Source of the DNA: Candidatus Melainabacteria bacterium
Lineage (GTDB): Bacteria > Cyanobacteriota > Vampirovibrionia > 2-02-FULL-35-15
NCBI GenBank assembly: GCA_023250205.1
Contig: JAHFBE010000001.1
Span: forward strand, 2,110 to 66,109
Direction of reading: 5' to 3'
DNA: 64,000 bases
The notes beneath the pieces are model-generated. The model was not told the DNA's origin, did not search any database, and was given only the letters and a program-made list of their open reading frames with translations. Shown here in pieces: positions 2,084 through 55,451 of the stretch; positions within the stretch are counted from its first letter, which is position 1, and every line of letters starts with the position of its first letter. Position numbers and translations under genes: made by a program.

Positions 2084-2210
2084 GTTATTGCGAGGAACGC
2101 AGTGACGAAGCAATCTTATACAGCCACCAACTTTAACATCCTCATCTTTAACAAGTATCATTGCCCAAGATGAATTCCTTGTAAGATTGCTTCGCTTCGC
2201 TCGCAATGAC
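2084..2210. repeat. MITE-like palindromic element (GTCATTGCGAGG family), intergenic between the two transketolase subunit genes
   Basis: Left end GTTATTGCGAGGAACGCAGTGACGAAGCAATC, right end GATTGCTTCGCTTCGCTCGCAATGAC; the ends are inverted repeats. Confidence 0.8.
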
Positions 2211-3054: not shown

Positions 3055-3070
3055 GAAATTATTCTATCAA

Positions 3071-3098
3071 GTAGGCACGTAGCATGCTACGTGCCTAC
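3071..3098. repeat. 28-bp perfect palindrome GTAGGCACGTAGCATGCTACGTGCCTAC (GTAGG...CCTAC family)
   Basis: Read directly; lies 5 nt downstream of the trpS stop. Confidence 0.85.
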
Positions 3099-3103
3099 AG
3101 TTA

Positions 3104-4114: not shown

Positions 4115-4143
4115 AGACTTAATTATTATATTACAAAAGAGTT

Positions 4144-4250
4144 GTCATTGCGAGGAGAGTAGCGACAAAGCAACCCCAAGTGGATTACAAAAGAGCGATC
4201 GAGATTGCTATGGAGACGTTGTATGCAACGTCTCTTCTCTTCGCAATAAC
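4144..4250. repeat. MITE-like palindromic element (GTCATTGCGAGG family, degenerate right end TTCGCAATAAC)
   Basis: GTCATTGCGAGGAGAGTAGCGACAAAGCAAC ... GAGATTGCTATGGAGACGTTGTATGCAACGTCTC...TTCGCAATAAC; abuts the hydrolase stop codon. Confidence 0.75.
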
Positions 4251-4251
4251 A

Positions 4252-5100
4252 TTACAATTTCCTATGTTCTAATGCTGGCAAATTCTTTCTAATTTTTTCT
4301 AAATAGTCCAATTCAATTTCTGCAAAAATCACTTCTTCTTTATCCGCAGAGGCTTCAGCTAAAACTTTCCCCCACGGATCTACAATTAAACTATGTCCAT
4401 ATGTTCTCACACCACCAGAGCCAATCCCAGCCTGGTTAGGTGCCACTACATAACAAAGATTTTCTATTGCTCTTGCTTTTATAAGTGTATGCCAGTGAGC
4501 TTCACCAGTTGGTTTAGTAAATGATGAAGGAACACAAATAATCTTAGCCCCAGATTTTGAATATGCTCGATATAATTCTGGAAATCTCAAGTCATAGCAA
4601 ATACTCAAACCAATTTTAATAGAGTTAGGTTTGAAACCTACCTCTACAAGTTTTGGATTTTTACCAGCCTGATTTCTGCTTGATTCCAAAATCTCTTTTC
4701 CTTTTAGCTTAATATCAAACAAATGTATCTTTCTATACTTTGCAACAATTTCCCCTTCTGGGTTTATTAGAACTGAAGTATTAAATGGTTTTAAATCATT
4801 CTTTATGCTTCGTGCTTCGTGCTTCGTGCTTCTTGTTCTTTCCAAAATGCTACCAATTAAAATCCAAACTTTATGCTTCTTTGCAAGTGCCGAAATTAAA
4901 TTTGTAGATTGTCCTGGAATACTTTCAGCAAATTTAACAGCTTCAATCAGATTTCCGCGATAGTTAAAAACCTCTGGCAATGCAATAAACTTTGCTTTTT
5001 TCTTAATTGCTTGATTGATTAACTTTGCAGCCTCTTTTAAATTTTTATCTTTTTCTGAACCGCTTTTCATTTGAATAACGGCCACTTTGAGATTAGTCAT
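4252..5100 (-). CDS. carbon-nitrogen hydrolase (nitrilase superfamily, omega-amidase-like)
   Basis: LPEVF..., RKIHLFD and SICYDLRFPE blocks (Glu-Lys-Cys triad context); carries an in-frame heptamer-repeat insertion. Confidence 0.85.
   Translation of the reverse strand: MTNLKVAVIQMKSGSEKDKNLKEAAKLINQAIKKKAKFIALPEVFNYRGNLIEAVKFAESIPGQSTNLISALAKKHKVWILIGSILERTRSTKHEARSIKNDLKPFNTSVLINPEGEIVAKYRKIHLFDIKLKGKEILESSRNQAGKNPKLVEVGFKPNSIKIGLSICYDLRFPELYRAYSKSGAKIICVPSSFTKPTGEAHWHTLIKARAIENLCYVVAPNQAGIGSGGVRTYGHSLIVDPWGKVLAEASADKEEVIFAEIELDYLEKIRKNLPALEHRKL
4807..4841. repeat. heptamer tandem array (GAAGCAC on the coding strand, 3 perfect plus 2 degenerate units) inside the hydrolase CDS
   Basis: gcttcgt x3 then gcttctt gttcttt on the plus strand; translated as STKHEARSIKN. 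Confidence 0.85.
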
Positions 5101-5106
5101 GAGAAT

Positions 5107-5253
5107 TTATGATTGTACTTTATGAGCTTTTCCCTGTTTTTCTTTATATTCTTTATATTTCTTTTTAAATGAGTAATTTAAGTAGAACGGAATCCCACTT
5201 ATAAATGCAATTAACAGAGTAAGCACAATAATTTGGATCAATAAATCTTTCAT
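5107..5253 (-). CDS. possible small membrane protein, 48 aa (MKDLLIQIIVLTLLIAFISGIPFYL...)
   Basis: Below the ORF-track length cutoff; ATG start; stop 6 nt upstream of the hydrolase start; one hydrophobic helix then a K-rich tail. Confidence 0.3.
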   Translation of the reverse strand: MKDLLIQIIVLTLLIAFISGIPFYLNYSFKKKYKEYKEKQGKAHKVQS

Positions 5254-5450
5254 ATAGTTATTCCACCAACTCTTCGTATCCTTCTTGAAGTATCATTGTA
5301 CCAATAAATGCTAGAAATATTGAACCAATCAAATTAATAAAAATTTGACTGTTTAAAGATAACCCATCTTTTAAAATGTCTCAAACGAGAACTGCAGCAG
5401 GTGTCAACAATAGGTTACATCGGCAAGTTAGTTTTTTCGTAACTATTCAC

Positions 5451-5582
5451 GTCATTGCGAGGAAACACGAAGTGTTGACGTGGCAATCTCATTTTGCAAT
5501 ATCGTTTATAAGGCAGCCTTGCAAGCGGTATCTTAGTGTGAGATTGCTTCGTCATCCGCCAATGCGGATTTCTCGCAATGAC
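5451..5582. repeat. MITE-like palindromic element (GTCATTGCGAGG family)
   Basis: GTCATTGCGAGGAAACACGAAGTGTTGACGTGGCAATCTC ... GAGATTGCTTCGTCATCCGCCAATGCGGATTTCTCGCAATGAC. Confidence 0.85.
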
Positions 5583-5590
5583 AGAAAATT

Positions 5591-6145
5591 TTATTTAATG
5601 AGTGTTTCCTGTTTCTCAGTATTAAATAGTGTTGTTACTTCTTTATTTATAATCTGAGCCATCATTAACAAATGTCCGCCAGGATAACCATAGTATCCAT
5701 CTATTAAAAAGTCATGATCGTGAATTTGGTTTTGTAATATTTTTGGTTTTATTTTTTTTAGACCTTCTTCCTTTATATGTTCTCTTTTGAAAAGATTAAA
5801 TATTTTGTCAAAGATACCATCCTCACAATTTGCAGAAATAATTATCATTCCAGTAGGAAGCAAAAGTCTCCTTGCCTCATTGTAGAAAAAAGTATTCGGC
5901 GCAGTAGAGGCTTGCTGTAGCAAGCTTCTACCATCGCATAACGAATAATCTGTTACGATGCGCGTGAATGTATTATCTTCAAAAGGTAATTTTTCCAAGC
6001 CGTCCTCAGTAAAAGATAAGGCATTTTGTTTTTCTTTTATTCCTTTTATTAGATCTTCCTGCCACTCCCCTATTACCAGAACAGACTGCCCAACACCTAC
6101 AGCTTTAATTATTCGCTTAACTATTTTTTCTGGTTTTGAAATCAT
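5591..6145 (-). CDS. hypothetical protein, weak class I methyltransferase-fold resemblance
   Basis: VLVIGEW..., LPFEDNTFTRIV and LLPTGMIIIS resemble degenerate SAM-MTase motifs I/II/post-III; no clean GxGxG. Confidence 0.35.
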   Translation of the reverse strand: MISKPEKIVKRIIKAVGVGQSVLVIGEWQEDLIKGIKEKQNALSFTEDGLEKLPFEDNTFTRIVTDYSLCDGRSLLQQASTAPNTFFYNEARRLLLPTGMIIISANCEDGIFDKIFNLFKREHIKEEGLKKIKPKILQNQIHDHDFLIDGYYGYPGGHLLMMAQIINKEVTTLFNTEKQETLIK

Positions 6146-6156
6146 GATTTAAAAAA

Positions 6157-6607
6157 TGAAGTTTCTCATAAGCCGGGTTTTGTTTATGCAGTTATCTATC
6201 TAGGAGTATTGTCACCAATACCCTCAAGCGGTTTCAGCAGAATTGAGCAGCGGGCCACTGTTATCCAATCCTATACCTTATCCTTGCACCTTTAGCGGGG
6301 TTTACCAAGATTACAGTCACCTGTAAAATTCGTGAGCTCTTACCTCACGGTTGCACCCTTACCGACATGCGTATTGAGTATCGTGTACTGAGTATTACAT
6401 CAATAAAAAAAATCTTATTCTCTGACGCAATACTCAATACTCCATACGCAAGAAGGCGGTCTACATTTCTGTGGCACTTTCCTCACACTTACATGCACTT
6501 CGCATTACGAAGCAACCAGCCCTCTGGAGCCCGGACTTTCCTCATTCCATTGTTTTTCACCTAATTAGGCATACGATCAATGAAACGCAACTGCTTGAGA
6601 AACTTCA
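6157..6607 (-). ncRNA. rnpB: RNase P RNA, bacterial type A
   Basis: Minus strand reads GAGGAAAGTCCGGGCTCCA, AGTGCCACAGAAA..ACCGCC, GGTAAGGGTG, GGTAAGAGCTCAC, GGTAAACCCC and ACAAAACCCGGCTTA in the canonical order. Terminal P1 pairing is TGAAGTTTCTC (5') with GAGAAACTTCA (3'). Confidence 0.93.
6368..6449. repeat. heptamer-repeat hairpin (GCGTATTGAGTAT family) at about the P12 position of RNase P RNA
   Basis: Arms gcgtattgagtatcgtgtactgagtattac / gacgcaatactcaatactccatacgc with 7-nt periodicity, between ACCGCC and GGTAAGGGTG. Confidence 0.8.
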
Positions 6608-6868
6608 TGAGTATTATAACTTAAATCAAAATTTATTATCTTTTAATCAATTGTATGAGGAAAGTTAAATTAAAAATATTTAATTTTGTAAAGCAATAAA
6701 TATCCCTCAACCCTAAATAAAGAATAAATATAATCAAAAAACATTTAAATTCAACTCACTCAAAAAAAATTAGGGCTACCTCCTGTGACGTTCATCCCAC
6801 TGATGGGTAATTTGACTTCAGTAATCTCAAATTATGTGTTGGGATTTTTTTTGAAATGGGAGGTTCGT

Positions 6869-9868
6869 GTGAAAAAGATTATTTCAATTTTCTTAATCAT
6901 CGTTTTTGCATTTGTTTCTTTTGAATGCATAAGCACAAATGATGCATATGCTTCTAAAAAAGGAAGCAAAAAAGCTGGCAATAGTAAAAAAGGTAAGGGT
7001 GGGAAATCATCCAAGACTTCTTCTCAAGTATTTAGCAATACTGGAGAAACCACTTTATATGGCAGTGTTCTAATACCAACTGCTGATGAAGCAAATGTAC
7101 TTTTACCATCAGCTCAATTCGCTCAGGTCAGAAATGCAGGGGTAGAAAATTTAATTTTTACTCTTACATCTGCAGTTGATTCAACTATGGCATATAACAT
7201 TCCAAGTGAATCAGCGACAATTCAAAACAAAACTCTTAATAAGAAGTCTGGGAAATATATTGTTATTAGTTTATTTACTTTAACAAATCAATCAGGAATA
7301 ACAGTTTCCCCAAGCTCATTACCTTCAGATCAATACAAAATCACTATATCTGATGGTGACAGCCTTAATATAACAACTGAATCTTTTAAATTTGAACCAC
7401 CTGCACTAGTAGTTGGTACTGCTAAAACACAAACTACAAGTATTGTAACTGTTGATGACTTATCTGGAGATATGATTTCAGATGGAGCAGTTACAACAAG
7501 TACAAATGGTGCATTCTTTACTGAAGTAAGAGCTCAAAAACTTTCTACTGATTCTTCAGGTAAAAGTAGAAAAATTCGAGCTCAAACAACTGACGATGGA
7601 ACTGGTACAGGAGATACTGAGCCAGTAGATGATGCCCCAATAGATCCTGGTATTGTTAATGTAAATGATGGTGAGTTAACAGCTCTTTGGCCACTTACAA
7701 ACGATCCAGAAGTAAATGAAGATCAAGCTAATAATCCAGGTGTAGTTGATGAAAACACAACTCAAGCACTTGACTTACTAATAGAATCTGCGGATGGAGA
7801 TCTGGACAAATTAGAGGAATTTGCAGATGACGTAGTAAATGACAAAGTCGATGAATTTCAAGATGATTCATCTAATTCAGATTCAGACAATTCAGATTCA
7901 GGTGATTGTCCTGATCCTAAATTGTTAGCTGATCAATGTTCAAGTCCTAATGCAGAGTTAGGAGAAAAAGTTTTACAAACTTATATCAATAATCCTGCAT
8001 GTCAATTTGATGGTAAACAATTCATTGCTACATTACCTGTCATTAAAATCGCAGAAGTTTATTGTGAAAAAGCTAATCAAGAATTTGATGATCAAAAACC
8101 TTGTGAAATTTTTGCAATGATTCTTGCTGATTCTAAAAAGAATCCAAACTTTAAATTACCTTGTCCTCCACATCAATGTACAGAATTTGCCAATGTAAAA
8201 AATTGTGTAAATCCAACTGAACTTTGTGGTGGTCCTGGTCCAAACGGTCCTCAACAAGGCCCATTAGCACAAGTTACAGGTGGTCCTCAACAAAGTCCTC
8301 CTCCTCAACAAGGTGGTGGCTTTGGTGGTCCTCAGCAAGGTCCTCCTCCTCAACAAGGTGGTGGCTTTGGCGGTCCTCAGCAAGGTCCTCCTCCTCAACA
8401 AGGTGGTGGCTTTGGTGGTCCTCAGCAAGGTCCTCCTCCTCAACAAGGTGGTCCTGGTAACGGATGCTTTGCTCCTCCTCCAAAGGATTTATTCTGTAAG
8501 CAAATTGGAAAAGATATTCAAGCTTCAGAATGTGTCCCGGATCAATTTGGCGGTCCACAATGGACTATTGCTTCAACAAATGATATTAAATTCTGTGTTC
8601 CTGATATGATATTTGCTCCTCCAGGATTTACAGGAACAGTTCCAACTTCTAGTGAAATTGCACAACAATGTACTTTAGGCTCCTGCCACAATGAATGTGA
8701 TAGCAAATTTGGAAGACCTTTCCAAACATTTGGATTACAAACATTTGGCGGTCCACAGCAAGGTAGTCCTCAACAAGGTCCTCCTCCTCAACAAGGTGGT
8801 CCTCAGCAAGGTGGTGGATTTGGTGGTGGTCCTGGAAATTTCCAAGAACCTCCTTCAGCAGTTTGCCATCAAAAATGTGAAGCTAAAGCTGGACACTTAT
8901 CATGTAATCCATTTTCTTTAGCATTCAGTAAAAATTGCTGTTCACAAACACAACCAAACTTTGCTGCACAATTCGTTGGTCCACAACAAGGTGGCGGCTT
9001 TGGCGGACAAGGCGGCGGCTTTGGCGGACAAGGTGGCGGCTTTGGCGGACAAGGTGGTGGGCAACGTCCTATTCCTCCTGGTGGTAATATTCAAAACTGC
9101 TTATGTAACTCAGGTACATTTGATAGTGATGGATTTATTACTCAAGATGCAATAAACACTTGTAAGAATTCATGCCCTGACGGTACTGAATTAGTACTAC
9201 TATCAAGTGGTCAAAATGGCTGCTTACCAAAATGTAAAGAAGGTCAAACAAGAGAACCAGGAAGTAATTTTTGCAAAGGTGGAAGCAATGAAAATGATTG
9301 CCCTCCAGGTCAAACATTAGGACCTGATGGTCAATGTAAACCTTCTGGTGGTCAATGTCCTCCAGGTCAAATACAAGGACCTGATGGTCAATGTAAACCT
9401 GGAAGCGGAGACCAAGGTGGATTTGGATGCGATCCAAAAGATCCAAATTGTAAGCCTGGTGCACCACAACAAGGTCCTCCTCAACAAGGCGCTCCTCAAC
9501 AAGGTCCTCCTCAACAAGGTCCTCCTCAACAAGGTCCTCCTCAACAAGGTCCTCCTCAACAAGGTCCTCCTCAACAAGGTCCTCCTCAACAAGGTCCTCC
9601 TCAACAAGGTCCTCCTCCTCAAGGTGGCGACCAAGGTGGTTTCCAACCTCCTCCACAAGGTGGTCAACAACCTCCTCCACAAGGTGGTCAACAACCTCCC
9701 CCACAAGGTGGTCAACAACCTCCTCCACAAGGTGGTTTCCAACCTCCTCCTGGCGGTGACGGCGGCGGTTCTCCACCTCCTCCACCACCACCTCCTCCTC
9801 CACCTCCTCCTGATGGCGGCGGCGGCGGTTCTCCACCACCACCACCTCCTCCTCCTCCTCCTGGTTAA
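6869..9868 (+). CDS. secreted Cys-rich, Pro/Gln/Gly-repeat giant protein (about 1000 aa)
   Basis: Likely GTG start at 6869, 5 nt after GGGAGG. N-terminal signal-like KKIISIFLIIVFAFVSFECISTNDAYA. Multiple in-frame tandem repeats, many Cys, polyproline C-terminus. Terminator follows. Confidence 0.8.
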   Translation: MKKIISIFLIIVFAFVSFECISTNDAYASKKGSKKAGNSKKGKGGKSSKTSSQVFSNTGETTLYGSVLIPTADEANVLLPSAQFAQVRNAGVENLIFTLTSAVDSTMAYNIPSESATIQNKTLNKKSGKYIVISLFTLTNQSGITVSPSSLPSDQYKITISDGDSLNITTESFKFEPPALVVGTAKTQTTSIVTVDDLSGDMISDGAVTTSTNGAFFTEVRAQKLSTDSSGKSRKIRAQTTDDGTGTGDTEPVDDAPIDPGIVNVNDGELTALWPLTNDPEVNEDQANNPGVVDENTTQALDLLIESADGDLDKLEEFADDVVNDKVDEFQDDSSNSDSDNSDSGDCPDPKLLADQCSSPNAELGEKVLQTYINNPACQFDGKQFIATLPVIKIAEVYCEKANQEFDDQKPCEIFAMILADSKKNPNFKLPCPPHQCTEFANVKNCVNPTELCGGPGPNGPQQGPLAQVTGGPQQSPPPQQGGGFGGPQQGPPPQQGGGFGGPQQGPPPQQGGGFGGPQQGPPPQQGGPGNGCFAPPPKDLFCKQIGKDIQASECVPDQFGGPQWTIASTNDIKFCVPDMIFAPPGFTGTVPTSSEIAQQCTLGSCHNECDSKFGRPFQTFGLQTFGGPQQGSPQQGPPPQQGGPQQGGGFGGGPGNFQEPPSAVCHQKCEAKAGHLSCNPFSLAFSKNCCSQTQPNFAAQFVGPQQGGGFGGQGGGFGGQGGGFGGQGGGQRPIPPGGNIQNCLCNSGTFDSDGFITQDAINTCKNSCPDGTELVLLSSGQNGCLPKCKEGQTREPGSNFCKGGSNENDCPPGQTLGPDGQCKPSGGQCPPGQIQGPDGQCKPGSGDQGGFGCDPKDPNCKPGAPQQGPPQQGAPQQGPPQQGPPQQGPPQQGPPQQGPPQQGPPQQGPPQQGPPPQGGDQGGFQPPPQGGQQPPPQGGQQPPPQGGQQPPPQGGFQPPPGGDGGGSPPPPPPPPPPPPPDGGGGGSPPPPPPPPPPG
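8279..8455 (+). repeat. 45-bp tandem repeat, about 4 units (GGPQQGPPPQQGGGF)
   Basis: Read directly in the giant CDS. Confidence 0.9.
8990..9064 (+). repeat. 21-bp tandem repeat, about 3.5 units (GGGFGGQ)
   Basis: ggtggcggctttggcggacaa repeated. Confidence 0.9.
9467..9616 (+). repeat. 15-bp tandem repeat, 10 units (QQGPP)
   Basis: caacaaggtcctcct repeated, nearly perfect. Confidence 0.92.
9632..9751 (+). repeat. 24-bp tandem repeat, 5 units (QGGQQPPP / QGGFQPPP)
   Basis: caaggtggtcaacaacctcctcca repeated. Confidence 0.9.
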
Positions 9869-9886
9869 ATAGATAATAAAACATCA

Positions 9887-9921
9887 AAAGCCCTCTGAAT
9901 AAACTTAGAGGGCTTTTTTTT
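9887..9921. terminator. bidirectional rho-independent terminator between convergent genes
   Basis: AAAGCCCTCT ... AGAGGGCTTT stem flanked by an A-run and a T-run. Confidence 0.8.
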
Positions 9922-9935
9922 ATTCTATGGATTAT

Positions 9936-11435
9936 TTAATTACAGTAATATTCCCAAATAAAATACTTATGCGGGCCAGACACTTTATAATCTGGTAATT
10001 GTTCTTTATATATTAAATATGTTTCTAGTTTTGAAAGTTTCTTATCTCCAGAATGATTTTCATTCCACTTGCGACATAAATACCAGGAAAGGTTTGGAAG
10101 AATATTTGCTCTAGCATTTGGAAACCAACCAAGATTTAACAGAAATGCTCTCCAATGCCTGTTTTTAAAAGTCTTTGTCGGATACTTTGGGGTTTTCCAT
10201 TTAACTGGCTTACCATCTCTAAATACATCAATTTTTGTTCCATCCTTTAAAGTCCCAACAAAAACAAACCAAAAACTTGTTCTCGTAGGTGGAGCATACA
10301 TAGCCCATTTCTGATCTATTCTTAATGTATGTCCAATCCATTGTAAAGAATTTGGGATTTGATATTTTGGATACAGTGTCCAATAATTCCAAGCAAGTAT
10401 ATAGACAAACAAAAATCCAACAATCAAATTTAAGCCAAGTGTTTGTTTAACAGAAATTATTTTTTTACATATAACTAACTTACCAATTAGATTCCTACTA
10501 CTAAAGAAAAATTTGTTTAAAGAATCACTTACCTTATTAAATAAATTTATTTTCAGTATTAAACTATCCCAAATTTGTGACGGTAAAAACAAAATCATAG
10601 AAATCGATGATACCCATGGAAAAAAAGCGATTTCCATAGACGATCCCATTCCAATTTGAAATAAAATAAAAGCTAATATCATAAGTGTTCTTATAAAAAC
10701 TGTAAATATTGGAGAGAAAAGAAGCACAGTTCCTATAAATTCAAACCAATATGCTCCATACGTAAGAACTTTCATAAGCTCTGGTTTACTAAAAATGAAT
10801 CTCCCAAACGGTGTTATATAGTGATCATGACTTAAGGCATAGTAGACTGCTGTACCATTAGTCCACTCTTCAGTTCTGTGTTTAAAAACAATTGTTATTA
10901 AATACATAAGAGCTATCTGAGCAAGTATTGCAATGGTAGCCATTGAAAGCATTTTACTCGGAAGCTTCTCTTTAGATGGATTTAAAATACTATCCACCGA
11001 ATAGCATGCACCGAGTGGCAAGAACATACTCCAAAAGAGCATTTGCCTGAGTAATTCATCTCCTCCATTTGATAAAATCGGATTTCTAACATGCACTGAG
11101 AGCAACAAGAACCAGGATACAATAGTTGAAAGCTTTGTATTCAATCCTATTAATAATAAAAATGCAAATACTATAGCCATCAAAAAAATAAAAGCCTGAA
11201 CATAAAGACTTCCACTAATCATATTTAATGAAATATAGTTAGTATTGTAGTTGCCCATTTGCAAAATTCTGGTAAAGATTCCACTATCCGAATAAAAAGG
11301 TTCTAAATCACGAAATCGTTGAACAACATCAATGATTATTACCAATGCTATGCACATTCGAAATAAAGCTAGTGATCGTAAATCAATTCCAAACAATTGT
11401 TGAAATTTTTCTTTTATCCCATTTTTACTTTTCAT
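9936..11435 (-). CDS. HTTM-domain (vitamin K-dependent gamma-carboxylase-like) polytopic membrane protein
   Basis: N-terminal FGIDLRSLALFRMCIALVIIIDVV...FYSDSGI pattern, many TM helices, C-terminal DQKWAMYAPP block; recognised from memory of the family. Confidence 0.65.
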   Translation of the reverse strand: MKSKNGIKEKFQQLFGIDLRSLALFRMCIALVIIIDVVQRFRDLEPFYSDSGIFTRILQMGNYNTNYISLNMISGSLYVQAFIFLMAIVFAFLLLIGLNTKLSTIVSWFLLLSVHVRNPILSNGGDELLRQMLFWSMFLPLGACYSVDSILNPSKEKLPSKMLSMATIAILAQIALMYLITIVFKHRTEEWTNGTAVYYALSHDHYITPFGRFIFSKPELMKVLTYGAYWFEFIGTVLLFSPIFTVFIRTLMILAFILFQIGMGSSMEIAFFPWVSSISMILFLPSQIWDSLILKINLFNKVSDSLNKFFFSSRNLIGKLVICKKIISVKQTLGLNLIVGFLFVYILAWNYWTLYPKYQIPNSLQWIGHTLRIDQKWAMYAPPTRTSFWFVFVGTLKDGTKIDVFRDGKPVKWKTPKYPTKTFKNRHWRAFLLNLGWFPNARANILPNLSWYLCRKWNENHSGDKKLSKLETYLIYKEQLPDYKVSGPHKYFIWEYYCN

Positions 11436-14784: not shown

Positions 14785-14849
14785 ATTTATATAATACAAC
14801 ACCCGTAGGTATGGGGTATGCTAACAAATCGAGAATAAACAGCATAAAT

Positions 14850-14926
14850 GTCATTGCGAGCCGAATGAAATGAGGCGTGGCAATCCCGATCGGGACTGCT
14901 TCGTCGCTCATGCTCCTCGCAGTGAC
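14850..14926. repeat. MITE-like palindromic element (short copy)
   Basis: GTCATTGCGAGCCGAATGAAATGAGGCGTGGCAATCCCGATCGGGACTGCTTCGTCGCTCATGCTCCTCGCAGTGAC. Confidence 0.8.
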
Positions 14927-14963
14927 ATGTTAAAGTTATCCTCGAAAAGTTTACACACCCCAC

Positions 14964-14995
14964 CCGTAGGTACGCGATTAATCGCATACCTACGG
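14964..14995. repeat. 32-bp near-perfect palindrome CCGTAGGTACGCGATTAATCGCATACCTACGG in the kpsF/trmL divergent intergenic region
   Basis: Read directly, one mismatch; a half-site CACCCGTAGGTA recurs at 14800-14811. Confidence 0.8.
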
Positions 14996-15008: not shown

Positions 15009-15653
15009 ATGGTAATCCGTTCTAAACAAAGATTAAATATTTTTAAGCCCTACAACATTGTTCTTGTAGAACCTGAAATACCTCCAAATACAGGCAACAT
15101 AGCTCGACTCTGTTCTGCAACAAACACAAAGTTACACCTTGTGCATCCTTTAGGATTTAAGATTTCAGATAAAGAACTTAAAAGAGCAGGTCTTGATTAC
15201 TGGCATTTGCTGGATGTACAAGAATATCAAAATTGGGAGGAATTTTATCTAAACCACTCTACAAAACGTCATTGCGAGAAGCCCTCACGCTTCGCTCAGG
15301 GTAAACTCCGCGACGAAGCAATCTCCAAAACGTTAGGGGATTGCCATGTCGGTGCTAGCGCCCCTCCTCGCAATGACAGTGAAGTAAAATTTTGGTACAT
15401 CTCTACCCGCGGTGAAAAAAACATCTGGGATGTAGAATTTAATCCAGGAGATTATTTAATCTTTGGGAGCGAGACAAAAGGACTAAGCGAAAATATTGTA
15501 GAAGATAAAAGAAACAAAGATTCCATAATTTCTATTCCAATGAACGGTAAAGCCAGAAGCTTAAACCTTTCTACTGCAGCTGGCATTGTATTATATGAAG
15601 CATTAAGGCAAGTGACTGTGGAAAAAAAACTAATTAAGTTAACGTCAATATGA
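15009..15653 (+). CDS. trmL: tRNA (cytidine/uridine-2'-O)-methyltransferase TrmL (SpoU family) carrying a 39-aa repeat-derived insertion
   Basis: NIVLVEPEIPPNTGNIARLC and SLNLSTAAGIVLYEALRQ match TrmL; the extra length is accounted for by the element at 15268-15376. Confidence 0.85.
   Translation: MVIRSKQRLNIFKPYNIVLVEPEIPPNTGNIARLCSATNTKLHLVHPLGFKISDKELKRAGLDYWHLLDVQEYQNWEEFYLNHSTKRHCEKPSRFAQGKLRDEAISKTLGDCHVGASAPPRNDSEVKFWYISTRGEKNIWDVEFNPGDYLIFGSETKGLSENIVEDKRNKDSIISIPMNGKARSLNLSTAAGIVLYEALRQVTVEKKLIKLTSI
15268..15376. repeat. MITE-like palindromic element inside the trmL reading frame
   Basis: GTCATTGCGAGAAG...GACGAAGCAATCTCCAAAACGTTAGGGGATTGCC...CCTCCTCGCAATGAC; translated RHCEKPSRFAQGKLRDEAISKTLGDCHVGASAPPRNDSE. 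Confidence 0.85.
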
Positions 15654-17062
15654 ACAATGAGAACAAAAATCGTCATTGCGAGGAGGATAGCGACGAAGCA
15701 ATCTCCAAAACGTTAGGAGATTGCCGCGTCAGTGCTAATGCACCTCCTCGCAATGACAGTGAAATTCCAATCTACAACACCTTAAAAGATTACTTATCTA
15801 AAACTCCTGTTCGAATGCATGTCCCATTTCACAATGGAATTCCTAATAATGGCATTCTCCCAAAAGAACTTTACAACATAGATATTTCCGAAGTAAGCGG
15901 ATATGACATAGAAGGGGAAGACAATCCTATCTTTCAATCCGAGAAAATTACTGCTGATTTTTTTGGCGTAAAGCATTCTTTTTATTTAACCGGAGGAGCA
16001 AGCATTGGATTGTTAGCAAGTTTAATTGCACTGAATAAATATGGTAAGAAGGTAATTCTTGCAAGGAATGTTCATAAATCAGTAATCAATGGGGTGATTT
16101 TAAGCGGACTTGAACCTGTTTGGCTTGAGGTAGACTTCCTTGACAATTGGGGGATATTCTCAAAAGTTAATTCTGACAAGCTTGAACAATTGATATTAAA
16201 TGAACCAGAAGTAGCTGGATGTGTAATCGTATCTCCTACTTATGAAGGTGTCATTTCAGACATTAAATCTATTTCAGAGATTTGTCACAAGAAAAATATT
16301 CCTTTGATTGTAGATGAAGCACATGGAGCACATTTGTGGTTTTTAAGAGAACGGAAGCACGAAGTACGAGGCACGAAGCAAGAAAAAACATCTACTGGTA
16401 AGCTTAGCGCCGATCTCACCATCCAATCATGGCATAAATCTCTTGGAAGTTTAACTCAAAGTGGTGTTTTACATCTAGCAAATGAAAGATTTTTTTCGTA
16501 TAACGATATAAAACGTTCTTTAGATTTAGTTAGTTCTACAAGTCCATCTTTTTTACTTTTACTATCTCTAGAATTAACAAGAAAACATTTTTCAGAGACC
16601 AACGGTTTATTTCTTAACCAATTATTAACCCTTTCAGAATCTTTAAAATCAGAAATGAAAGAAATTCAAGATATTGAAATTTTTAATAGTGAGGATCCAT
16701 TTAAACTTTATATAAAATTAAAAAATATTTCCGGAATTGATCTTGGATTTGAATTATACAAGAATCATTCAATTGAGATTGAAAGTGCAAACGACATTGG
16801 ACTTCTAATGTTAATTGGGCGGGGATTTAACAATGAATTAAAAAATAAAATCATTAATGCAATTAAAGAAATTGCTCCATGTAAGGGCACGCCATGGCAT
16901 GCCCCAACAAAAGGCAAGCCACACACAAATAAATTTAAATCAAATCCTCGCAATGCATTCTTGAATGGATTTCAAAATAAAACAAATTGCGAATATGAAT
17001 CAGAAATAGTTGCACCATGTCCACCAGGATATGCTATGAATGTACCAGGAATGCCTACATGA
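15650..17062 (+). CDS. Orn/Lys/Arg decarboxylase family PLP enzyme (Bacillus SpeA-like)
   Basis: IPIYNTLKDY...MHVPFHNG N-terminal block, DEAHGAH and SWHKSLGSLTQSG (PLP lysine) blocks. ATGA overlap with the trmL stop. Two in-frame repeat insertions. Confidence 0.85.
   Translation: MNNENKNRHCEEDSDEAISKTLGDCRVSANAPPRNDSEIPIYNTLKDYLSKTPVRMHVPFHNGIPNNGILPKELYNIDISEVSGYDIEGEDNPIFQSEKITADFFGVKHSFYLTGGASIGLLASLIALNKYGKKVILARNVHKSVINGVILSGLEPVWLEVDFLDNWGIFSKVNSDKLEQLILNEPEVAGCVIVSPTYEGVISDIKSISEICHKKNIPLIVDEAHGAHLWFLRERKHEVRGTKQEKTSTGKLSADLTIQSWHKSLGSLTQSGVLHLANERFFSYNDIKRSLDLVSSTSPSFLLLLSLELTRKHFSETNGLFLNQLLTLSESLKSEMKEIQDIEIFNSEDPFKLYIKLKNISGIDLGFELYKNHSIEIESANDIGLLMLIGRGFNNELKNKIINAIKEIAPCKGTPWHAPTKGKPHTNKFKSNPRNAFLNGFQNKTNCEYESEIVAPCPPGYAMNVPGMPT
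15672..15756. repeat. MITE-like palindromic element inside the decarboxylase reading frame (codons 8-38)
   Basis: GTCATTGCGAGGAGGATAGCGACGAAGCAATCTCCAAAACGTTAGGAGATTGCCGCGTCAGTGCTAATGCACCTCCTCGCAATGAC; translated RHCEEDSDEAISKTLGDCRVSANAPPRNDSE. Confidence 0.85.
16354..16388. repeat. GAAGCAC-type heptamer array (5 units) inside the decarboxylase CDS
   Basis: gaagcac gaagtac gaggcac gaagcaa gaaaaaa; translated RKHEVRGTKQEK. Confidence 0.8.
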
Positions 17063-18159
17063 TAACCATAACAAATCAAGCTATTGAAACCACCACTTCA
17101 AAATATGCAATCAATGCTTTAGAAAAGAAATGTTTTTTTAAGTTAGTATGCGGCGCAAGTTTAACTGACACACAAATGATAGAAAATCTTTCATTTATTT
17201 TTACCCTTGCTGGAGCACATGTAATAGATCTGGCACCAAGTGCAGACGTGATCTTTGCAGCGAGAAGAGGAATTGAAAAAGCTCTAAGTTATCTTGAGAA
17301 ACAGAGGCATGAGGCACGAAACACGAATCATGAAGAGCAAATTTCTTTCCTGCTTCCTGCTTCCTGCTTCCTGCCTCGTCCTCCACTTCTAATGGCAAGC
17401 ATACAGCTTGACAAAGATCCACACTTTCGAAAAGCACAAGTGAACTATGATTCATGCGATCTTTGTAGTGCCTGTGTACAAATCTGCCCAACAGAAGCTT
17501 TTAAAATTGAAGACAATAAGTTTATTTATTCAGTAGAAAAATGTTTTGGCTGTGGTATTTGTCCTTCTTACTGTCATGTCTCTGCACTAAGCATGCTTGA
17601 TACAAATCCTACGCCAATAGAAACTTTCCAGGAAATGGTTTTACTTGGAGTTGAAGCAGTTGAATTTCACTTTGGAGAGAATTTTCATAGGTTAGAAGAA
17701 ATCTGGGATCAAATAAATAATCTCAGGAATAAATCCATGTTATTTTCATTCAGTATTGGAAGTGGGCTGCTCTCTGACAAACAAATTAAAAATGCTGCCA
17801 ATTTATGCTTTAAACTTGCAGGAAAAGGCATTATTTTACAATGTGATGGAACCCCAATGAGTGGTGGAAATAATAAAAATGGGAATAATAAGGATAACCC
17901 TAGCTTACAAGTTGCGAAGCTCATAGAAGAAGAAAATTTGCCAGTTTATTTACAAATATCAGGTGGGACAAATGAAAACTCTTTTGCTAAAGCAAAAGAG
18001 GCAAAAATAAATATTAACGGTGTAGCAATTGGATCTTATGCCAGAAAATTACTTATGCCCTATTTAAGCGATTTAAATGATAAAGTAAAATTTAAAGACG
18101 CAGCTAACATTGCTCGCTCATTAGTTAATTCTGTTGGAAATTGTGAGGTAACATCTTAA
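17059..18159 (+). CDS. LdpA-like protein with two 4Fe-4S ferredoxin motifs
   Basis: FFKLVCGAS N-terminal block, CDLCSACVQICP and CFGCGICPSYC cluster motifs. ATG at 17059 overlaps the upstream stop (ATGA). The LdpA assignment is from memory of the cyanobacterial protein. Confidence 0.6.
   Translation: MITITNQAIETTTSKYAINALEKKCFFKLVCGASLTDTQMIENLSFIFTLAGAHVIDLAPSADVIFAARRGIEKALSYLEKQRHEARNTNHEEQISFLLPASCFLPRPPLLMASIQLDKDPHFRKAQVNYDSCDLCSACVQICPTEAFKIEDNKFIYSVEKCFGCGICPSYCHVSALSMLDTNPTPIETFQEMVLLGVEAVEFHFGENFHRLEEIWDQINNLRNKSMLFSFSIGSGLLSDKQIKNAANLCFKLAGKGIILQCDGTPMSGGNNKNGNNKDNPSLQVAKLIEEENLPVYLQISGGTNENSFAKAKEAKININGVAIGSYARKLLMPYLSDLNDKVKFKDAANIARSLVNSVGNCEVTS
17304..17380. repeat. opposed heptamer arrays (GAGGCAC-type x5, spacer, CTTCCTG x4-5) forming an imperfect hairpin inside the LdpA-like CDS
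   Basis: gaggcat gaggcac gaaacac gaatcat gaagagc ... tttcctg cttcctg cttcctg cttcctg cctcgtc; translated RHEARNTNHEEQISFLLPASCFLPRP. Confidence 0.8.
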
Positions 18160-25894: not shown

Positions 25895-26020
25895 GTCATT
25901 GCGAGGAACCCAAGGGGCAACGCGGCAATCTCATTTAGATATAACAATTTTGAGCAGGACAATAAATTGATAGCTGTCAGCAGAGATTGCTTCGTCGGGC
26001 TTTGCCCTTCTCGCAATGAC
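25895..26020. repeat. MITE-like palindromic element upstream of the thiolase gene
   Basis: GTCATTGCGAGGAACCCAAGGGGCAACGCGGCAATCTC ... GAGATTGCTTCGTCGGGCTTTGCCCTTCTCGCAATGAC. Confidence 0.85.
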
Positions 26021-28212: not shown

Positions 28213-28251
28213 TTACTCCTTTAAGATTTTGAGATTCTTCACTTCACTCAG

Positions 28252-28287
28252 AATGACAAATGTGTGAATAATCACACATTTGTCATT
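28252..28287. repeat. perfect 16-bp-stem hairpin overlapping the anmK stop, next to a half MITE arm (28231-28257)
   Basis: AATGACAAATGTGTGA ataa TCACACATTTGTCATT. Confidence 0.75.
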
Positions 28288-32146: not shown

Positions 32147-32283
32147 GTCATTGCGAGGAAGGACAAAGTCCTGACGAAGCAATCTCATAAAGACACCAAC
32201 TTTACTTAAATAGTGACCTTATTAAAAGTTATATTAGTTATAAGATTGCCACGTCGGCTCTAGTAGAGCCTCCTCGCAATGAC
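32147..32283. repeat. MITE-like palindromic element
   Basis: GTCATTGCGAGGAAGGACAAAGTCCTGACGAAGCAATCTC ... AGATTGCCACGTCGGCTCTAGTAGAGCCTCCTCGCAATGAC; same subtype as 41842-41932 in the opposite orientation. Confidence 0.88.
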
Positions 32284-36800: not shown

Positions 36801-36867
36801 GTCATCCTGAGCCAAAGGCGAAGGACCTCCTAACGTTAGCAGATTCTTCGCTAACGCTTAGAATGAC
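36801..36867. repeat. MITE-like element, GTCATYCTGAG variant
   Basis: GTCATCCTGAGCCAAAGGCGAAGGACC...AGATTCTTCGCTAACGCTTAGAATGAC between convergent genes. Confidence 0.75.
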
Positions 36868-36872
36868 ATTTA

Positions 36873-38374: not shown

Positions 38375-38413
38375 CTTTCCTCGACAGGTTTTTTATTATA
38401 GCTTACTTCCTCT

Positions 38414-38495
38414 GTCATTGCGAGGGAAGAGACGTTGCATGCAACGTCTCCACGGCAATCTCGATAAATTTTCATGTAAATCACTCGGGATTACT
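38414..38495. repeat. truncated MITE-like element containing the palindrome GAGACGTTGCATGCAACGTCTC (38429-38450)
   Basis: GTCATTGCGAGGGAAGAGACGTTGCATGCAACGTCTCCACGGCAATCTCG; the right terminal repeat is missing. Confidence 0.7.
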
Positions 38496-40845: not shown

Positions 40846-40910
40846 CGTATTGCGTCGTGAGTATAGAGTATTGCGTTACAAGGCGCTCAATACTCCATAT
40901 TCTATACGCT
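40845..40910. repeat. heptamer-repeat hairpin of the GCGTATTGAGTAT family (same family as the RNase P insert)
   Basis: gcgtattgcgtcgtgagtatagagtattgcg ... cgctcaatactccatattctatacgc immediately after the argJ stop. Confidence 0.8.
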
Positions 40911-40922
40911 AAAATATTATTT

Positions 40923-41636: not shown

Positions 41637-41725
41637 GGATTTGTCCCATTTATTGGGCAAATCCGATCCGACAAAATTAATTGGCATAGAAAAGCGCAAA
41701 CTTGTTTTGCGCTACATAAAAGGAT

Positions 41726-41801
41726 TAAAGCTCCTGATTCTCCAAAAGCAATGATGTGGAAAGATATTCAGGAGATTAGAAAGGTTTTTGATTCTCTATA
41801 G
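41726..41801 (+). pseudogene. orphan duplicate of the last 25 codons plus stop of the UDG gene
   Basis: 48 nt identical to 41558-41605, then mostly third-position differences through its own TAG. Confidence 0.8.
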
Positions 41802-41841
41802 TACTTATACCAAACGTGAAAAATAAGTTAACATCTGTTAC

Positions 41842-41932
41842 GTCATTGCGAGGAGGCTCAAAGAGCCGACGTGGCAATCTAATAACGTTATGGAGATTGC
41901 TTCGTCAGGACTTTGTCCTTCCTCGCAATGAC
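41842..41932. repeat. MITE-like palindromic element
   Basis: GTCATTGCGAGGAGGCTCAAAGAGCCGACGTGGCAATCT ... GAGATTGCTTCGTCAGGACTTTGTCCTTCCTCGCAATGAC. Confidence 0.88.
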
Positions 41933-51501: not shown

Positions 51502-51580
51502 ATCATTGAGAGCCAGGTAAAAAAAACGGTTTGCGCAAGTTAGATCGGGATTGCTTCGGCATTACATGCCTCGCAATGAC
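51502..51580. repeat. degenerate MITE-like element
   Basis: ATCATTGAGAG ... GGGATTGCTTCGGCATTACATGCCTCGCAATGAC. Confidence 0.65.
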
Positions 51581-55377: not shown

Positions 55378-55451
55378 ATCATTGCGAGGAGCGCTAGTGA
55401 CGAAGCAACCTTATTTTGATTATAAGATTGCTTCGCTTTGCTCGCAATGAC
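55378..55451. repeat. MITE-like palindromic element (short copy)
   Basis: ATCATTGCGAGGAGCGCTAGTGACGAAGCAACC...AAGATTGCTTCGCTTTGCTCGCAATGAC. Confidence 0.8.

What the first reader, a model, noticed from the sequence alone, without database searches (positions are those of the whole stretch)
15266..15762. Palindromic mobile-like element inserted in frame in two adjacent genes (trmL and a PLP decarboxylase)
Copies of the GTCATTGCGAGG...CCTCGCAATGAC element lie inside both reading frames, in the same orientation and phase. They add RHCEKPSRFAQGKLRDEAISKTLGDCHVGASAPPRNDSE (39 aa) to TrmL and RHCEEDSDEAISKTLGDCRVSANAPPRNDSE (31 aa) to the decarboxylase, with no stop codons. In TrmL the insert splits sequence that is contiguous in E. 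coli TrmL as I recall it: the insert sits between the ...NHSTK segment and the KFWYISTRG block, which corresponds to E. coli LFALTTKG. In the decarboxylase it sits between codon 7 and the first conserved block (IPIYNTL..., compare Bacillus SpeA TPLYTGL...). This resembles Rickettsia palindromic elements (RPEs), which also persist in frame in coding genes, but the sequence family is different and the lineage appears cyanobacteria-related.
Basis: partly seen in the sequence, partly recalled or inferred. Interest (0 to 1): 0.75.

Follow-up and report, generated by a model that had tools for sequence, protein, structure and literature searches.

The report
Palindromic repeat inserted in-frame in genes
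Two neighbouring genes of a Melainabacteria-like bacterium each carry, in frame, a copy of a small palindromic repeat that also litters this genome's intergenic gaps, many other bacterial phyla and phage-like contigs; it is the same kind of thing as the 'CGTC-tagged' REP/Rickettsia palindromic elements described in 2000-2013, so it is a real but largely explained phenomenon.

Summary
The tRNA methyltransferase gene trmL (15009-15653) and the overlapping PLP-dependent decarboxylase gene (15650-17062) each contain a copy of GTCATTGCGAG...CTCGCAATGAC. The copies have the same orientation and reading phase. They add 39 and 31 stop-free codons (15267-15383 and 15671-15763).

The window holds 11 such elements, 9 of them intergenic. 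Close relatives have element-free alleles. In TrmL, 42 residues replace a 2-residue loop of solved TrmL structures and are predicted to be disordered. The decarboxylase insert is unique among 32 relatives.

The element is an outward-tagged ("head-to-head") dimer of (C/T)GTC-tagged palindromic units. It has no target-site duplication and no recurrent neighbouring gene. This matches the CGTC-tagged REP superfamily of Di Nocera et al. 2013, which includes Rickettsia RPE-4 and RPE-6 and is known to sit in frame inside genes. The unit architecture differs from the four described families.

Two results go beyond the finding. The same protein loops are occupied by several different palindromic families in relatives. 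The family also reaches many phyla and at least one phage structural-gene contig.

Verdict: a new variant of a known kind, of moderate interest.

The parts
15009..15653 (+). trmL (tRNA (cytidine/uridine-34-2'-O)-methyltransferase, SPOUT family), 214 aa including the insert.
   Evidence: The ORF is. Pfam SpoU_methylase scores 3.3e-31 in two stretches. PDB TrmL chains score down to 7.7e-37. Foldseek gives target-normalised TM-scores of 0.83-0.90 to TrmL structures.
15267..15383 (+). In-frame insert of 39 codons in trmL (residues 87-125, RHCEK...RNDSE). It consists of C, the 110-nt element and AGTGAA.
   Evidence: Sequence and coordinates are. The segment is absent from the L002 allele. It replaces a 2-residue loop of 4pzk. 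pLDDT is below 50 for residues 88-120.
15268..15377 (.). Palindromic core of the trmL copy. The layout is: outer arms GTCATTGCGAG / CTCGCAATGAC; inner arms GACGAAGCAATCTC / GGGGATTGCCATGTC; a right side-hairpin GGTGCTAGCGCC.
   Evidence: The RNA fold gives -45.4 kcal/mol, z = -3.7.
15279..15309 (.). Nested module AAGCCCTCACGCTTCGCTCAGGGTAAACTCC, which occupies the left side-hairpin position of the trmL copy and encodes KPSRFAQGKL.
   Evidence: An 87% inverted match lies at 50542-50572, inside a related TGTC-tagged dimer. The module is absent from the decarboxylase copy and from the orthologous L004 copy.
15650..17062 (+). PLP-dependent Orn/Lys/Arg-decarboxylase-family gene, 470 aa. Its ATG overlaps the trmL stop codon (ATGA).
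   Evidence: The ORF is. Pfam OKR_DC_1 scores 1.3e-41 over residues 40-349. Homologues are listed.
15671..15763 (+). In-frame insert of 31 codons after codon 7 of the decarboxylase (RHCEED...RNDSE). It consists of C, the 86-nt element and AGTGAA.
   Evidence: The segment is absent from all 31 aligned relatives and from the L002/L004 DNA. No in-frame ATG/GTG/TTG lies between the element and the conserved (E)TPIYNTL block (read).
15672..15757 (.). Palindromic core of the decarboxylase copy.
   Evidence: The fold gives -51.3 kcal/mol, z = -10.0. It is 91% identical to the trmL copy over 74 nt (family D14).
2084..2210 (.). Intergenic copy (127 nt) lying between two minus-strand genes.
4144..4250 (.). 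Intergenic copy (107 nt) with a degenerate right end. It carries a GAGACGTTGTATGCAACGTCTC mini-palindrome.
5451..5582 (.). Intergenic copy (132 nt). Its right side-hairpin is itself a canonical CGTC-tagged REP (CGTC-ATCCGC-CAAT-GCGGAT).
14850..14926 (.). Intergenic copy (77 nt) just upstream of trmL. It is embedded in a ~137-nt insertion flanked by 12-nt direct repeats.
25895..26020 (.). Intergenic copy (126 nt).
32147..32283 (.). Intergenic copy (137 nt). It shows the clearest four-way junction.
41842..41932 (.). Intergenic copy (91 nt) between convergent genes. It is an inverted near-twin of the 32147 copy.
   Evidence: (I2).
51502..51580 (.). Intergenic copy (79 nt) with a degenerate left half.
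55378..55451 (.). Intergenic copy (74 nt), the minimal form.
38413..38462 (+). Solo unit (half element).
   Evidence: (I3).

Best explanation
What it is. Each insert is a copy of a non-autonomous palindromic repeat of the REP type. It consists of two inverted (C/T)GTC-tagged units with the tags on the outside, the 'head-to-head' dimer of the CGTC-tagged REP superfamily. As a single strand it folds into one long hairpin or four-way junction.

How it got there. The repeat multiplies within the genome and normally survives in intergenic gaps. Two copies landed in coding sequence. One is in the helix-to-strand loop of TrmL. This looks like an older event, because several relatives share the same junction. 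The other lies 7 codons into the neighbouring decarboxylase. It is seen in no relative and is the trmL copy's closest match in the window, so it was probably copied from it 380 bp away.

Why it persists. The inserted lengths are multiples of three. The frame used (RHCEE...PPRNDSE) is stop-free. Both sites tolerate extra residues: a surface loop and a variable N-terminus. The segments are therefore translated as disordered decorations.

Shown versus inferred. Shown: identity of the repeat, in-frame status, lineage specificity, loop position and breadth of distribution. Inferred: that the segments are translated, that they are neutral, that the trmL copy was the source of the decarboxylase copy, and how the repeat moves. 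The movement mechanism makes no target-site duplication and no dedicated transposase is known. Single-strand hairpin-dependent copying or recombination into existing palindromes is the most likely route.
For: Repeat family:
- The terminus occurs 21 times against 0.45 expected.
- There are 11 paired copies, 9 of them intergenic, in a window that is 88% coding.

Inserts are lineage-specific:
- Element-free TrmL alleles exist among the closest relatives.
- The decarboxylase insert is unique among 32 sequences.

Sites are permissive:
- In the PDB alignment, query residues 83-124 replace 4pzk residues 71-72.
- In the AlphaFold model, pLDDT is below 50 only for residues 88-120, and the core fold matches TrmL structures at target-normalised TM 0.83-0.90.

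The frame is maintained:
- The genic inserts are 117 and 93 nt, while the intergenic copies have lengths in all three residue classes mod 3.
- The orthologous trmL copies in the window and in L004 acquired different nested modules, yet both proteins are 214 aa and open.
- About 16 relatives carry inserts of this family giving loop segments of 23-62 aa, all within open reading frames.

REP-type features:
- The tag is CGTC in 122 and TGTC in 83 of 218 units. The tail is CCA in 94 units from other phyla.
- Dimers with the tags outside were found 104 times.
- 91 of 104 dimers have no target-site duplication.
- No recurrent neighbouring gene was found.
- These features match the description of CGTC REPs, their head-to-head dimers, their intragenic in-frame copies and RPE-4/RPE-6 in PMC3733652.

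In-frame copies of the same family elsewhere:
- One lies in the glutamine-amidotransferase domain of GuaA in a gammaproteobacterial MAG.

Local copying:
- The two genic copies are 91% identical and share the flanks C...AGTGAA.
Against: - No transcript or protein data exist, so translation through the inserts is inferred from frame and stop-codon conservation only.
- The protein database holds only called ORFs, so frameshifted alleles would be under-represented.
- The unit does not fit the published CGTC families: its stem is 5 bp (ATTGC/GCAAT) around an 11-45 nt interior, instead of an 8-9 bp stem with a 4-5 nt loop (Table 1).
- Figure 2 of that paper could not be read, so whether this exact family was already catalogued (for example among the Bradyrhizobium variants with unusual loops) is unknown.
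- The patchy distribution of the trmL insert on a neighbour-joining tree fits either many gains or one gain with many losses. The history is unresolved.
- Insert boundaries are ambiguous, because the host loop and the N-terminus are themselves variable.
Confidence: 0.75

Rival explanations
1. The decarboxylase copy is not coding. Translation would start downstream of the element, and the hairpin would be a 5'-leader or intercistronic control element affecting coupling between trmL and the decarboxylase.
For: PMC3733652 warns that many REPs annotated in the 5' end of ORFs are probably extragenic. The copy begins only 21 nt after the ATG and forms a -51 kcal/mol hairpin, which would hinder initiation or elongation.
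Against: No in-frame ATG, GTG or TTG lies between the element and the conserved (E)TPIYNTLKDYLSK block. The next one is Met-56, inside the nearly invariant RMHVPFH motif. The ATG at 15650 overlaps the trmL stop codon. In L004 the two called genes likewise share base 6017, and in L002 they are 1 nt apart, so this is the ancestral start position. The 93-nt length and stop-free frame are what a translated insert requires.
Confidence: 0.1
2. It is a classical MITE: a deletion derivative of an insertion sequence with terminal inverted repeats, moved in trans by a DDE transposase.
For: It has perfect 11-12 nt terminal inverted repeats, a small size and many copies. One copy (14850-14926) sits inside a larger insertion that does have imperfect terminal inverted repeats and a 12-nt direct repeat.
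Against: 91 of 104 dimers have no target-site duplication. Single units and internally nested units exist. No transposase-like gene recurs near 120 loci. The same termini span phyla with very different GC content, which is unlike any one IS family.
Confidence: 0.08
3. The inserted peptides were selected for a function, for example a new interaction loop in TrmL or a Cys/His metal site (RHCE...DCH). On this reading the palindromic DNA is a vehicle for protein innovation.
For: The same TrmL loop and the same decarboxylase loops carry repeat-derived peptides in many relatives. The trmL insert is shared by several lineages with the same junction.
Against: The peptides in those loops come from unrelated repeat families and from different frames of the same repeat (RHCEE versus VIASKAKQS), and many close relatives lack them. 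The segment is predicted to be disordered. The Cys/His pattern is not kept in the decarboxylase copy (DCRV). The L004 orthologue shows decay of the terminus.
Confidence: 0.05
4. The segment is removed before the protein is made, by an intron-like excision or translational bypassing of the hairpin. On this reading frame and stop codons are irrelevant.
For: The segment forms a very stable, self-contained structure with defined ends.
Against: No known ribozyme or intron family matches. Both genic copies, and the inserts in about 16 relatives, are in frame and stop-free despite different lengths and nested additions, whereas intergenic copies show no length constraint. That pattern is expected only if the inserts are translated.
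Confidence: 0.02

Closest known systems
CGTC-tagged REPs (CGTC-1 to CGTC-4), head-to-head dimers. Di Nocera, De Gregorio and Rocco 2013, BMC Genomics 14:522 (PMC3733652).
   Same: The terminal tag is CGTC or TGTC. The stem begins with AT. A short tail follows, CCA in most copies from other phyla. Dimers have the tags outside and a 10-80 nt spacer. Copies are mostly intergenic, between unidirectional or convergent genes. Some copies are in frame inside genes. There is no target-site duplication and no associated transposase. The distribution is multi-phylum.
   Different: The unit has a 5-bp ATTGC/GCAAT stem enclosing an 11-45 nt interior, which often contains a second, oppositely oriented hairpin followed by GACG. 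The published families have an 8-9 bp stem and a 4-5 nt loop. The tail is CTC in this genome. The encoded peptides (RHCEE, SLRG, VIAR......PRND...LAMT) are not in that paper's list of intragenic REPs. Here the family is seen in far more phyla than the 5 they report, and also in viral-collection contigs.
Rickettsia palindromic elements (RPE). Ogata et al. 2000 Science 290:347; Ogata et al. 2002. Both are cited from my own knowledge and via PMC10969869.
   Same: Palindromic repeats persist in frame inside unrelated housekeeping genes. They add 20-50 residues at positions judged compatible with the fold. RPE-4 and RPE-6 were assigned to the same CGTC-tagged superfamily. RPE-6/CGTC-1-type peptides (CHSRExGNP...DSxFRGND, SFPxxxRESS...LDSRFRGND) occupy the very same TrmL and decarboxylase loops in relatives of this organism.
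   Different: The sequence family differs from RPE-1 to RPE-10 as far as their peptides are listed. The host is a free-living or environmental Melainabacteria-like lineage, not an obligate intracellular alphaproteobacterium. Only 2 of 11 copies in this window are genic, against nearly half for some RPE families.
REPINs, i.e. REP doublets mobilised by RAYT transposases. Bertels and Rainey 2011 (PMC3116915, listed).
   Same: Two inverted REP units form one hairpin. There is no target-site duplication. Many dispersed intergenic copies exist.
   Different: REPINs carry the GTAG tag and flank a RAYT gene in their genome. Here the tag is CGTC/TGTC, and no RAYT or other recurrent gene was found near 120 loci. 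According to PMC3733652, CGTC repeats are not associated with transposase genes.
Small dispersed repeats of cyanobacteria. Elhai et al. 2008, Genome Res, 'Very small mobile repeated elements in cyanobacterial genomes' (cited from my own knowledge; not read here).
   Same: These are very short hairpin-forming repeats that nest inside one another and inside other repeats in a cyanobacteria-related lineage.
   Different: The sequences and sizes differ. They were not compared here.

Membership tests
CGTC-tagged REP superfamily (PMC3733652) | An unpaired terminal tag CGTC (variants TGTC, CCTC) at one end of each unit. | tested here: met
   Of 218 units, 122 have CGTC, 83 TGTC, 7 AGTC and 6 GGTC. 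In both genic copies the left unit carries CGTC and the inverted right unit TGTC.
CGTC-tagged REP superfamily (PMC3733652) | The stem starts with complementary A-T residues at positions 1 and 2. | tested here: met
   The unit reads CGTC-ATTGC...GCAAT-CTC, so AT is first on the 5' side and AT last on the 3' side.
CGTC-tagged REP superfamily (PMC3733652) | A stem of 8-9 bp with a loop of 4-5 nt (Table 1 of the paper). | tested here: not met
   The stem is 5 bp (ATTGC/GCAAT). The enclosed segment is 11-45 nt and often holds its own hairpin. The paper itself notes atypical loops in Bradyrhizobium CGTC-1 and says that unreported classes exist.
CGTC-tagged REP superfamily (PMC3733652) | A 3-nt unpaired tail, consensus CCA. 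| tested here: inconclusive
   In other phyla CCA is the commonest tail (94 units), followed by CTC (44). In this window and its relatives the tail is CTC (8), CCC (3) or CTT (3), never CCA.
CGTC-tagged REP superfamily (PMC3733652) | Predominantly head-to-head dimers, with the tags outside. | tested here: met
   All 11 full copies in the window have this layout, as do 104 dimers across the loci examined.
CGTC-tagged REP superfamily (PMC3733652) | No associated transposase gene. | tested here: met
   No protein family recurs within 700 nt of the element in 120 loci, apart from spurious ORFs that run through the repeat itself.
Rickettsia palindromic elements (RPE-1 to RPE-10) | Sequence similarity to an RPE consensus. 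| tested here: not met
   The peptides of RPE-4 (VIPWLDHGI, DTVVKPRYD) and RPE-6 (VIPAKAGI, SFPRKRES, DSRFRGND) listed differ from RHCEE...PPRNDSE. RPE-1 and the remaining families were not available for comparison.
Rickettsia palindromic elements (RPE-1 to RPE-10) | A palindromic repeat retained in frame in functional genes, at positions compatible with the fold. | tested here: met
MITE (miniature inverted-repeat transposable element) | Terminal inverted repeats together with a target-site duplication of fixed length. | tested here: not met
   Terminal inverted repeats are present. However, 91 of 104 copies have no direct repeat at the flanks, and no repeat length recurs among the others.
REPIN/RAYT system | GTAG-tagged REP doublets with a cognate RAYT (Y1 HUH transposase) gene flanked by the same REPs. 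| tested here: not met
   The tag is CGTC/TGTC, not GTAG. No recurrent flanking gene was found. The whole genome of this organism was not available to search for a RAYT gene.
TrmL (host gene 1) | SPOUT-fold tRNA C/U34 2'-O-methyltransferase, by sequence and by fold. | tested here: met
   Pfam PF00588 matches. PDB TrmL chains score from 7.7e-37. Foldseek gives 5co4 and 4jal at probability 1.00.
Orn/Lys/Arg decarboxylase, major domain family (host gene 2) | A PF01276 match above the gathering score. | tested here: met
   The score is 143.2 bits against a cutoff of 27. Substrate specificity was not tested.

The most novel reading that the evidence does not exclude
The CGTC-ATTGCGAGG element is an uncatalogued, structurally composite class of CGTC-tagged repeat: a REP nested in a REP, giving a conserved four-way junction. 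It has spread across most bacterial phyla, possibly carried by phages. It integrates preferentially into pre-existing palindromes. As a result the same protein loops (the TrmL helix-strand loop and three sites in the decarboxylase) are colonised again and again by different palindromic families. That would make these repeats a directed generator of loop insertions in proteins, rather than random survivors.
Probability: 0.2. Interest if true: 0.65.

Novelty: new variant of a known kind. Interest (0 to 1): 0.42.

Why it matters
The finding extends the Rickettsia-type phenomenon of selfish palindromes living inside essential genes to a cyanobacteria-related lineage. It also shows that this element's termini are shared across many phyla and occur on at least one phage structural-gene contig, while no transposase is known for it. 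How CGTC-tagged repeats move is an open question.

This locus offers useful material for that question:
- a probably recent local copy 380 bp from its likely source;
- orthologous filled and empty alleles;
- loops that have been hit repeatedly.

On the practical side, such inserts break assemblies, create spurious small ORFs, and inflate or split gene calls in metagenome-assembled genomes. Annotators should recognise them.

Tried and rejected
- Rfam search. At gathering thresholds the only hit in the window is RNase P RNA. At E up to 10 the element gives only chance microRNA-like hits.
- Literature search for the terminus sequence and for the encoded peptides. Only chance primer matches and blood-group (RHCE) papers came back.
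- BLAST of one copy against 72,556 plasmids. No match.
- Search for a conserved neighbouring gene (transposase, GIY-YIG nuclease, RAYT) around 120 loci. None found.
- Search for strain-level empty alleles of both sites in JGI metagenome contigs with bridging patterns.
- Cluster look-up for organism names. No names are held.
- Target-site duplication analysis. Negative.
- A zinc-site reading of the RHCE...DCH peptide. Rejected because the His is not kept in the second copy and the segment is predicted to be disordered.
- An attempt to decide between a single gain and multiple gains of the trmL insert with a neighbour-joining tree. The tree is too poorly resolved for a roughly 170-aa protein to decide.
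Full report
**1. The observation**

The window has 34.5% G+C. The ORF at 15009-15653 (+) is a SpoU/TrmL-type methyltransferase. The ORF at 15650-17062 (+) is an Orn/Lys/Arg-decarboxylase-family PLP enzyme whose ATG overlaps the trmL stop codon.

Both ORFs contain a copy of GTCATTGCGAG...CTCGCAATGAC, at 15268-15377 (110 nt) and 15672-15757 (86 nt). The copies have the same orientation and are read in the same phase.

The palindromic cores have lengths of 2 mod 3. With the shared flanking bases (C on the left, AGTGAA on the right) the inserted segments are 117 and 93 nt.

The 11-nt terminus occurs 21 times in the window against 0.45 expected by chance. This gives 11 paired copies plus solo units. 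Nine of the 11 lie in intergenic gaps, although 88% of the window is coding. Six lie between unidirectional genes, one between convergent genes and two between divergent genes.

**2. The inserts are real, lineage-specific insertions**

*TrmL.* Solved TrmL structures align to residues 16-82 and 125-202 of the protein, so 42 residues stand where 4pzk has two. Pfam also splits the domain in two. An AlphaFold2 model built on 37 homologues is confident everywhere (mostly above 90) except residues 88-120, where pLDDT is below 50. These lie between helix 76-87 and strand 128-131. The model superposes on TrmL crystal structures with target-normalised TM-scores of 0.83-0.90.

Of 104 TrmL proteins from the same clade, some are named Candidatus Melainabacteria by their sources. 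About 55-60 of them have a 5-10 aa loop at this position. The relative closest in core identity, P0005 (87% in alignment A1), lacks the insert. Its DNA (L002) shows conserved synteny and conserved flanks, with roughly 27 nt of loop-coding sequence in place of the window's ~140 nt.

*Decarboxylase.* All 31 aligned relatives begin 6-9 residues before the conserved (E)TPIYNTL block, apart from a few that carry other, unrelated extensions. None has the RHCEE...RNDSE segment.

The start codon at 15650 overlaps the trmL stop. In the relatives the two called genes likewise abut. There is no in-frame ATG, GTG or TTG between the element and the conserved block. The element is therefore most likely translated. 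Initiation downstream cannot be fully excluded without data.

**3. Anatomy of the element**

Every full copy has the following plan:
- (C/T)GTC-ATTGCGAGG;
- a variable segment, usually a hairpin;
- GACGAAGCAATCTC;
- a variable centre of 8-69 nt;
- GAGATTGCYWCGTC;
- a second variable segment, usually a hairpin;
- CCTCGCAAT-GAC(G/A).

Folded as one strand this gives a long outer stem, a central stem and two side hairpins, i.e. a four-way junction. Energies are 4-10 standard deviations below those of shuffled sequences.

The side hairpins differ in sequence from copy to copy but remain hairpins. Each side hairpin abuts the GACG/CGTC of an inner arm. In copy 5451 the side hairpin is itself a textbook CGTC-tagged REP, CGTC-ATCCGC-CAAT-GCGGAT.

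In the trmL copy the left hairpin position holds a 31-nt module, AAGCCC...GCTCAGGGTAAACTCC. This module recurs in the equivalent position of a related TGTC-ATCCT dimer at 50489-50581. The orthologous trmL copy in relative L004 lacks that module but has a different addition of about 24 nt on the right side. Both proteins are 214 aa and open.

**4. Distribution**

The loci come from Bradyrhizobium and many other Alphaproteobacteria, Gammaproteobacteria, Anaerolineae, Patescibacteria, Bacteroidota, Planctomycetota, Zixibacteria, Ignavibacteriota, Omnitrophota, Rickettsiales, Helicobacter and others.

In these loci, together with the window, 104 complete dimers of the same plan were found, typically 80-90 nt long. 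Their flanks show Y at position -1 (C 66, T 29) and R at position +1 (G 63, A 36). There is no target-site duplication in 91 of 104. No protein family recurs next to them.

One of these, L176, encodes a major head protein, a portal and a large terminase, and has six copies in the gaps between its genes.

In-frame genic copies of this family exist elsewhere. One lies inside the glutamine-amidotransferase domain of GuaA in a gammaproteobacterial MAG.

**5. Comparison with what is known**

Rfam has no family for the element.

The literature search led to Di Nocera et al. 2013 (PMC3733652). That paper defines a superfamily of CGTC-tagged REPs with these features:
- a tag of CGTC or TGTC;
- a stem starting with AT;
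- a CCA tail;
- mostly head-to-head dimers, with the tags outside;
- mostly intergenic positions, between unidirectional or convergent genes;
- sometimes in-frame copies inside genes;
- no associated transposase;
- presence in several phyla.

The paper assigns Rickettsia conorii RPE-6 to CGTC-1 and RPE-4 to CGTC-4.

The present element meets the tag (CGTC 122 and TGTC 83 of 218 units), AT-first, dimer, location and no-transposase criteria. It meets the CCA tail in other phyla only. It does not meet the criterion of an 8-9 bp stem with a 4-5 nt loop. Its peptides are absent from the paper's table of intragenic REPs.

I therefore treat it as working like a CGTC-REP dimer or an RPE, but as a variant outside the four described families. 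Figure 2 of the paper could not be read, so prior cataloguing cannot be excluded.

It fails the MITE definition because it makes no target-site duplication. It fails the REPIN/RAYT definition because it has no GTAG tag and no RAYT.

**6. Results beyond the finding**

The TrmL loop is a hot spot among the 104 clade proteins:
- about 16 carry this element. Most share the same junction and frame (xK/A-RHCEE...PRNDxE). At least P0069 (VIASKAKQS...FPRNDC) and P0063/P0067 are in other registers, which implies more than one event;
- 3 carry CGTC-1/RPE-6-type peptides (CHSRExGNP...FRGND);
- about 20 have a 7-aa ETPRRGV-type loop of the kind a GAGACGCC...GGCGTCTC mini-palindrome would encode (inferred from the peptides; their DNA was not read);
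- about 4 carry yet another repeat.

On a neighbour-joining tree of the core, insert-bearing proteins are scattered, each next to an insert-free sister. This means either repeated gain or repeated loss. The tree is too weak to decide.

The decarboxylase family shows the same behaviour at two further loops. The adjacent LdpA gene has a 23-aa repeat-derived insert that is absent from L004.

The decarboxylase N-terminal copy is seen in no relative. Its closest match in the window is the trmL copy 380 bp upstream (91% identity, identical flanks C...AGTGAA). Local copying from the older trmL insert is the simplest history. This is an inference.

**7. Mechanism and verdict**

*Shown:* a REP-type palindromic dimer is inserted in frame at two permissive positions. 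Relatives provide empty alleles. The frame is preserved through independent secondary additions. Intergenic copies are not length-constrained.

*Inferred:* the inserts are translated as disordered decorations and persist because they are near-neutral, having passed the filter of frame, absence of stops and a tolerant site. Spread is by a mechanism that makes no target-site duplication and probably depends on hairpins, with an unknown catalyst. Phages may carry the family between lineages.

The strong hairpin 21 nt into the decarboxylase message may also affect its translation. This was not tested.

The main correction is that the element belongs to, or sits next to, a superfamily that was already described and already includes two RPE families, and that it is found in many phyla rather than being lineage-specific. 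The classification is a new variant of a known kind. Interest is moderate.

Noticed in passing
window 6154-6606 (-): The class A RNase P RNA is 453 nt long for a 367-position model. It has an AT-rich insertion of about 75 nt between model positions 136 and 137, and about 21 extra nt in the first hairpin loop. The extra sequence does not belong to the GTCATTGCGAG family.
   Followed up: partly
window 16339-16400 and 16885-16915 (inside the decarboxylase gene): There are two more repeat-derived segments in this gene. The first is RERKHEVRGTKQEK, with CACGAAG heptamers, in the loop after DEAHGxHL; in relatives this loop holds CGTC-1-type (SFPGLTRESS...LDSRFRGND) or this element's peptides. The second is the palindrome GGGCACGCCATGGCATGCCCC (KGTPWHAPT), at a site where most relatives have a different palindrome-like peptide (RDVARNVST, RDAINRVST). 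Across orthologues this site keeps a palindrome-like peptide pattern while the residues differ; the relatives' DNA was not examined.
   Followed up: partly
window ~17290-17390 (inside the LdpA-like gene, 17017-18159): There are 23 extra residues (KQRHEARNTNHEEQISFLLPASCFLP) relative to the L004 orthologue. They are encoded by an imperfect palindrome of CACGAA / TTCCTGC heptamer runs. This makes three adjacent genes that carry repeat-derived inserts.
   Followed up: partly
window 14810-14969: The intergenic copy at 14850-14926 lies in the centre of a ~137-nt insertion with imperfect terminal repeats (TGGGGTRTG...) and a perfect 12-nt direct repeat, CACCCGTAGGTA. The insertion sits in a pre-existing hairpin that is intact in L002. 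This looks like a duplication-making MITE carrying the REP dimer, and so a possible hitch-hiking route.
   Followed up: partly
window 28231-28258, 36801-36868, 50489-50581: Units and dimers of sister families are present, with TGTC-ATTCT and GTC-ATCCT stems. One shares the internal module found in the trmL copy.
   Followed up: partly
window 3072, 4213, 13032, 33816, 38427, 54235: A family of 22-27 nt perfect palindromes centred on GCATGC (for example TAGGCACGTAGCATGCTACGTGCCTA) lies mostly at gene ends. Stem sequences differ between copies but remain complementary.
   Followed up: no
window 6785-9868 (+): A 1027-aa ORF has long Pro/Gln/Gly-rich tandem repeats with periods of 15, 24 and 45 nt. 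It forms a high-GC island in a 34.5% GC genome.
   Followed up: no
window 35102-36769 (+): A protein made of about 9 diverged repeats of 111-117 nt, resembling HEAT/PBS-lyase repeats (recurring motif ...VR..AA.ALG.IG).
   Followed up: no
window 41547-41635 and 41715-41803: An 89-nt direct duplication (85% identity) covers the 3' end of the gene at 40857-41636 and lies immediately upstream of the element copy at 41842.
   Followed up: no
L176 (IMG/VR contig), 2397-10278: A phage structural module (major head protein, portal, large terminase) has six copies of the half-motif in its intergenic gaps. At least 120 viral-collection contigs carry the motif.
   Followed up: partly
L046 4466-4543; L066 7300-7386: The same element family is in frame within the glutamine-amidotransferase domain of GuaA in a gammaproteobacterial MAG. 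It also lies in the 5' part of a PBP1A-type transglycosylase ORF in a Patescibacteria MAG.
   Followed up: partly
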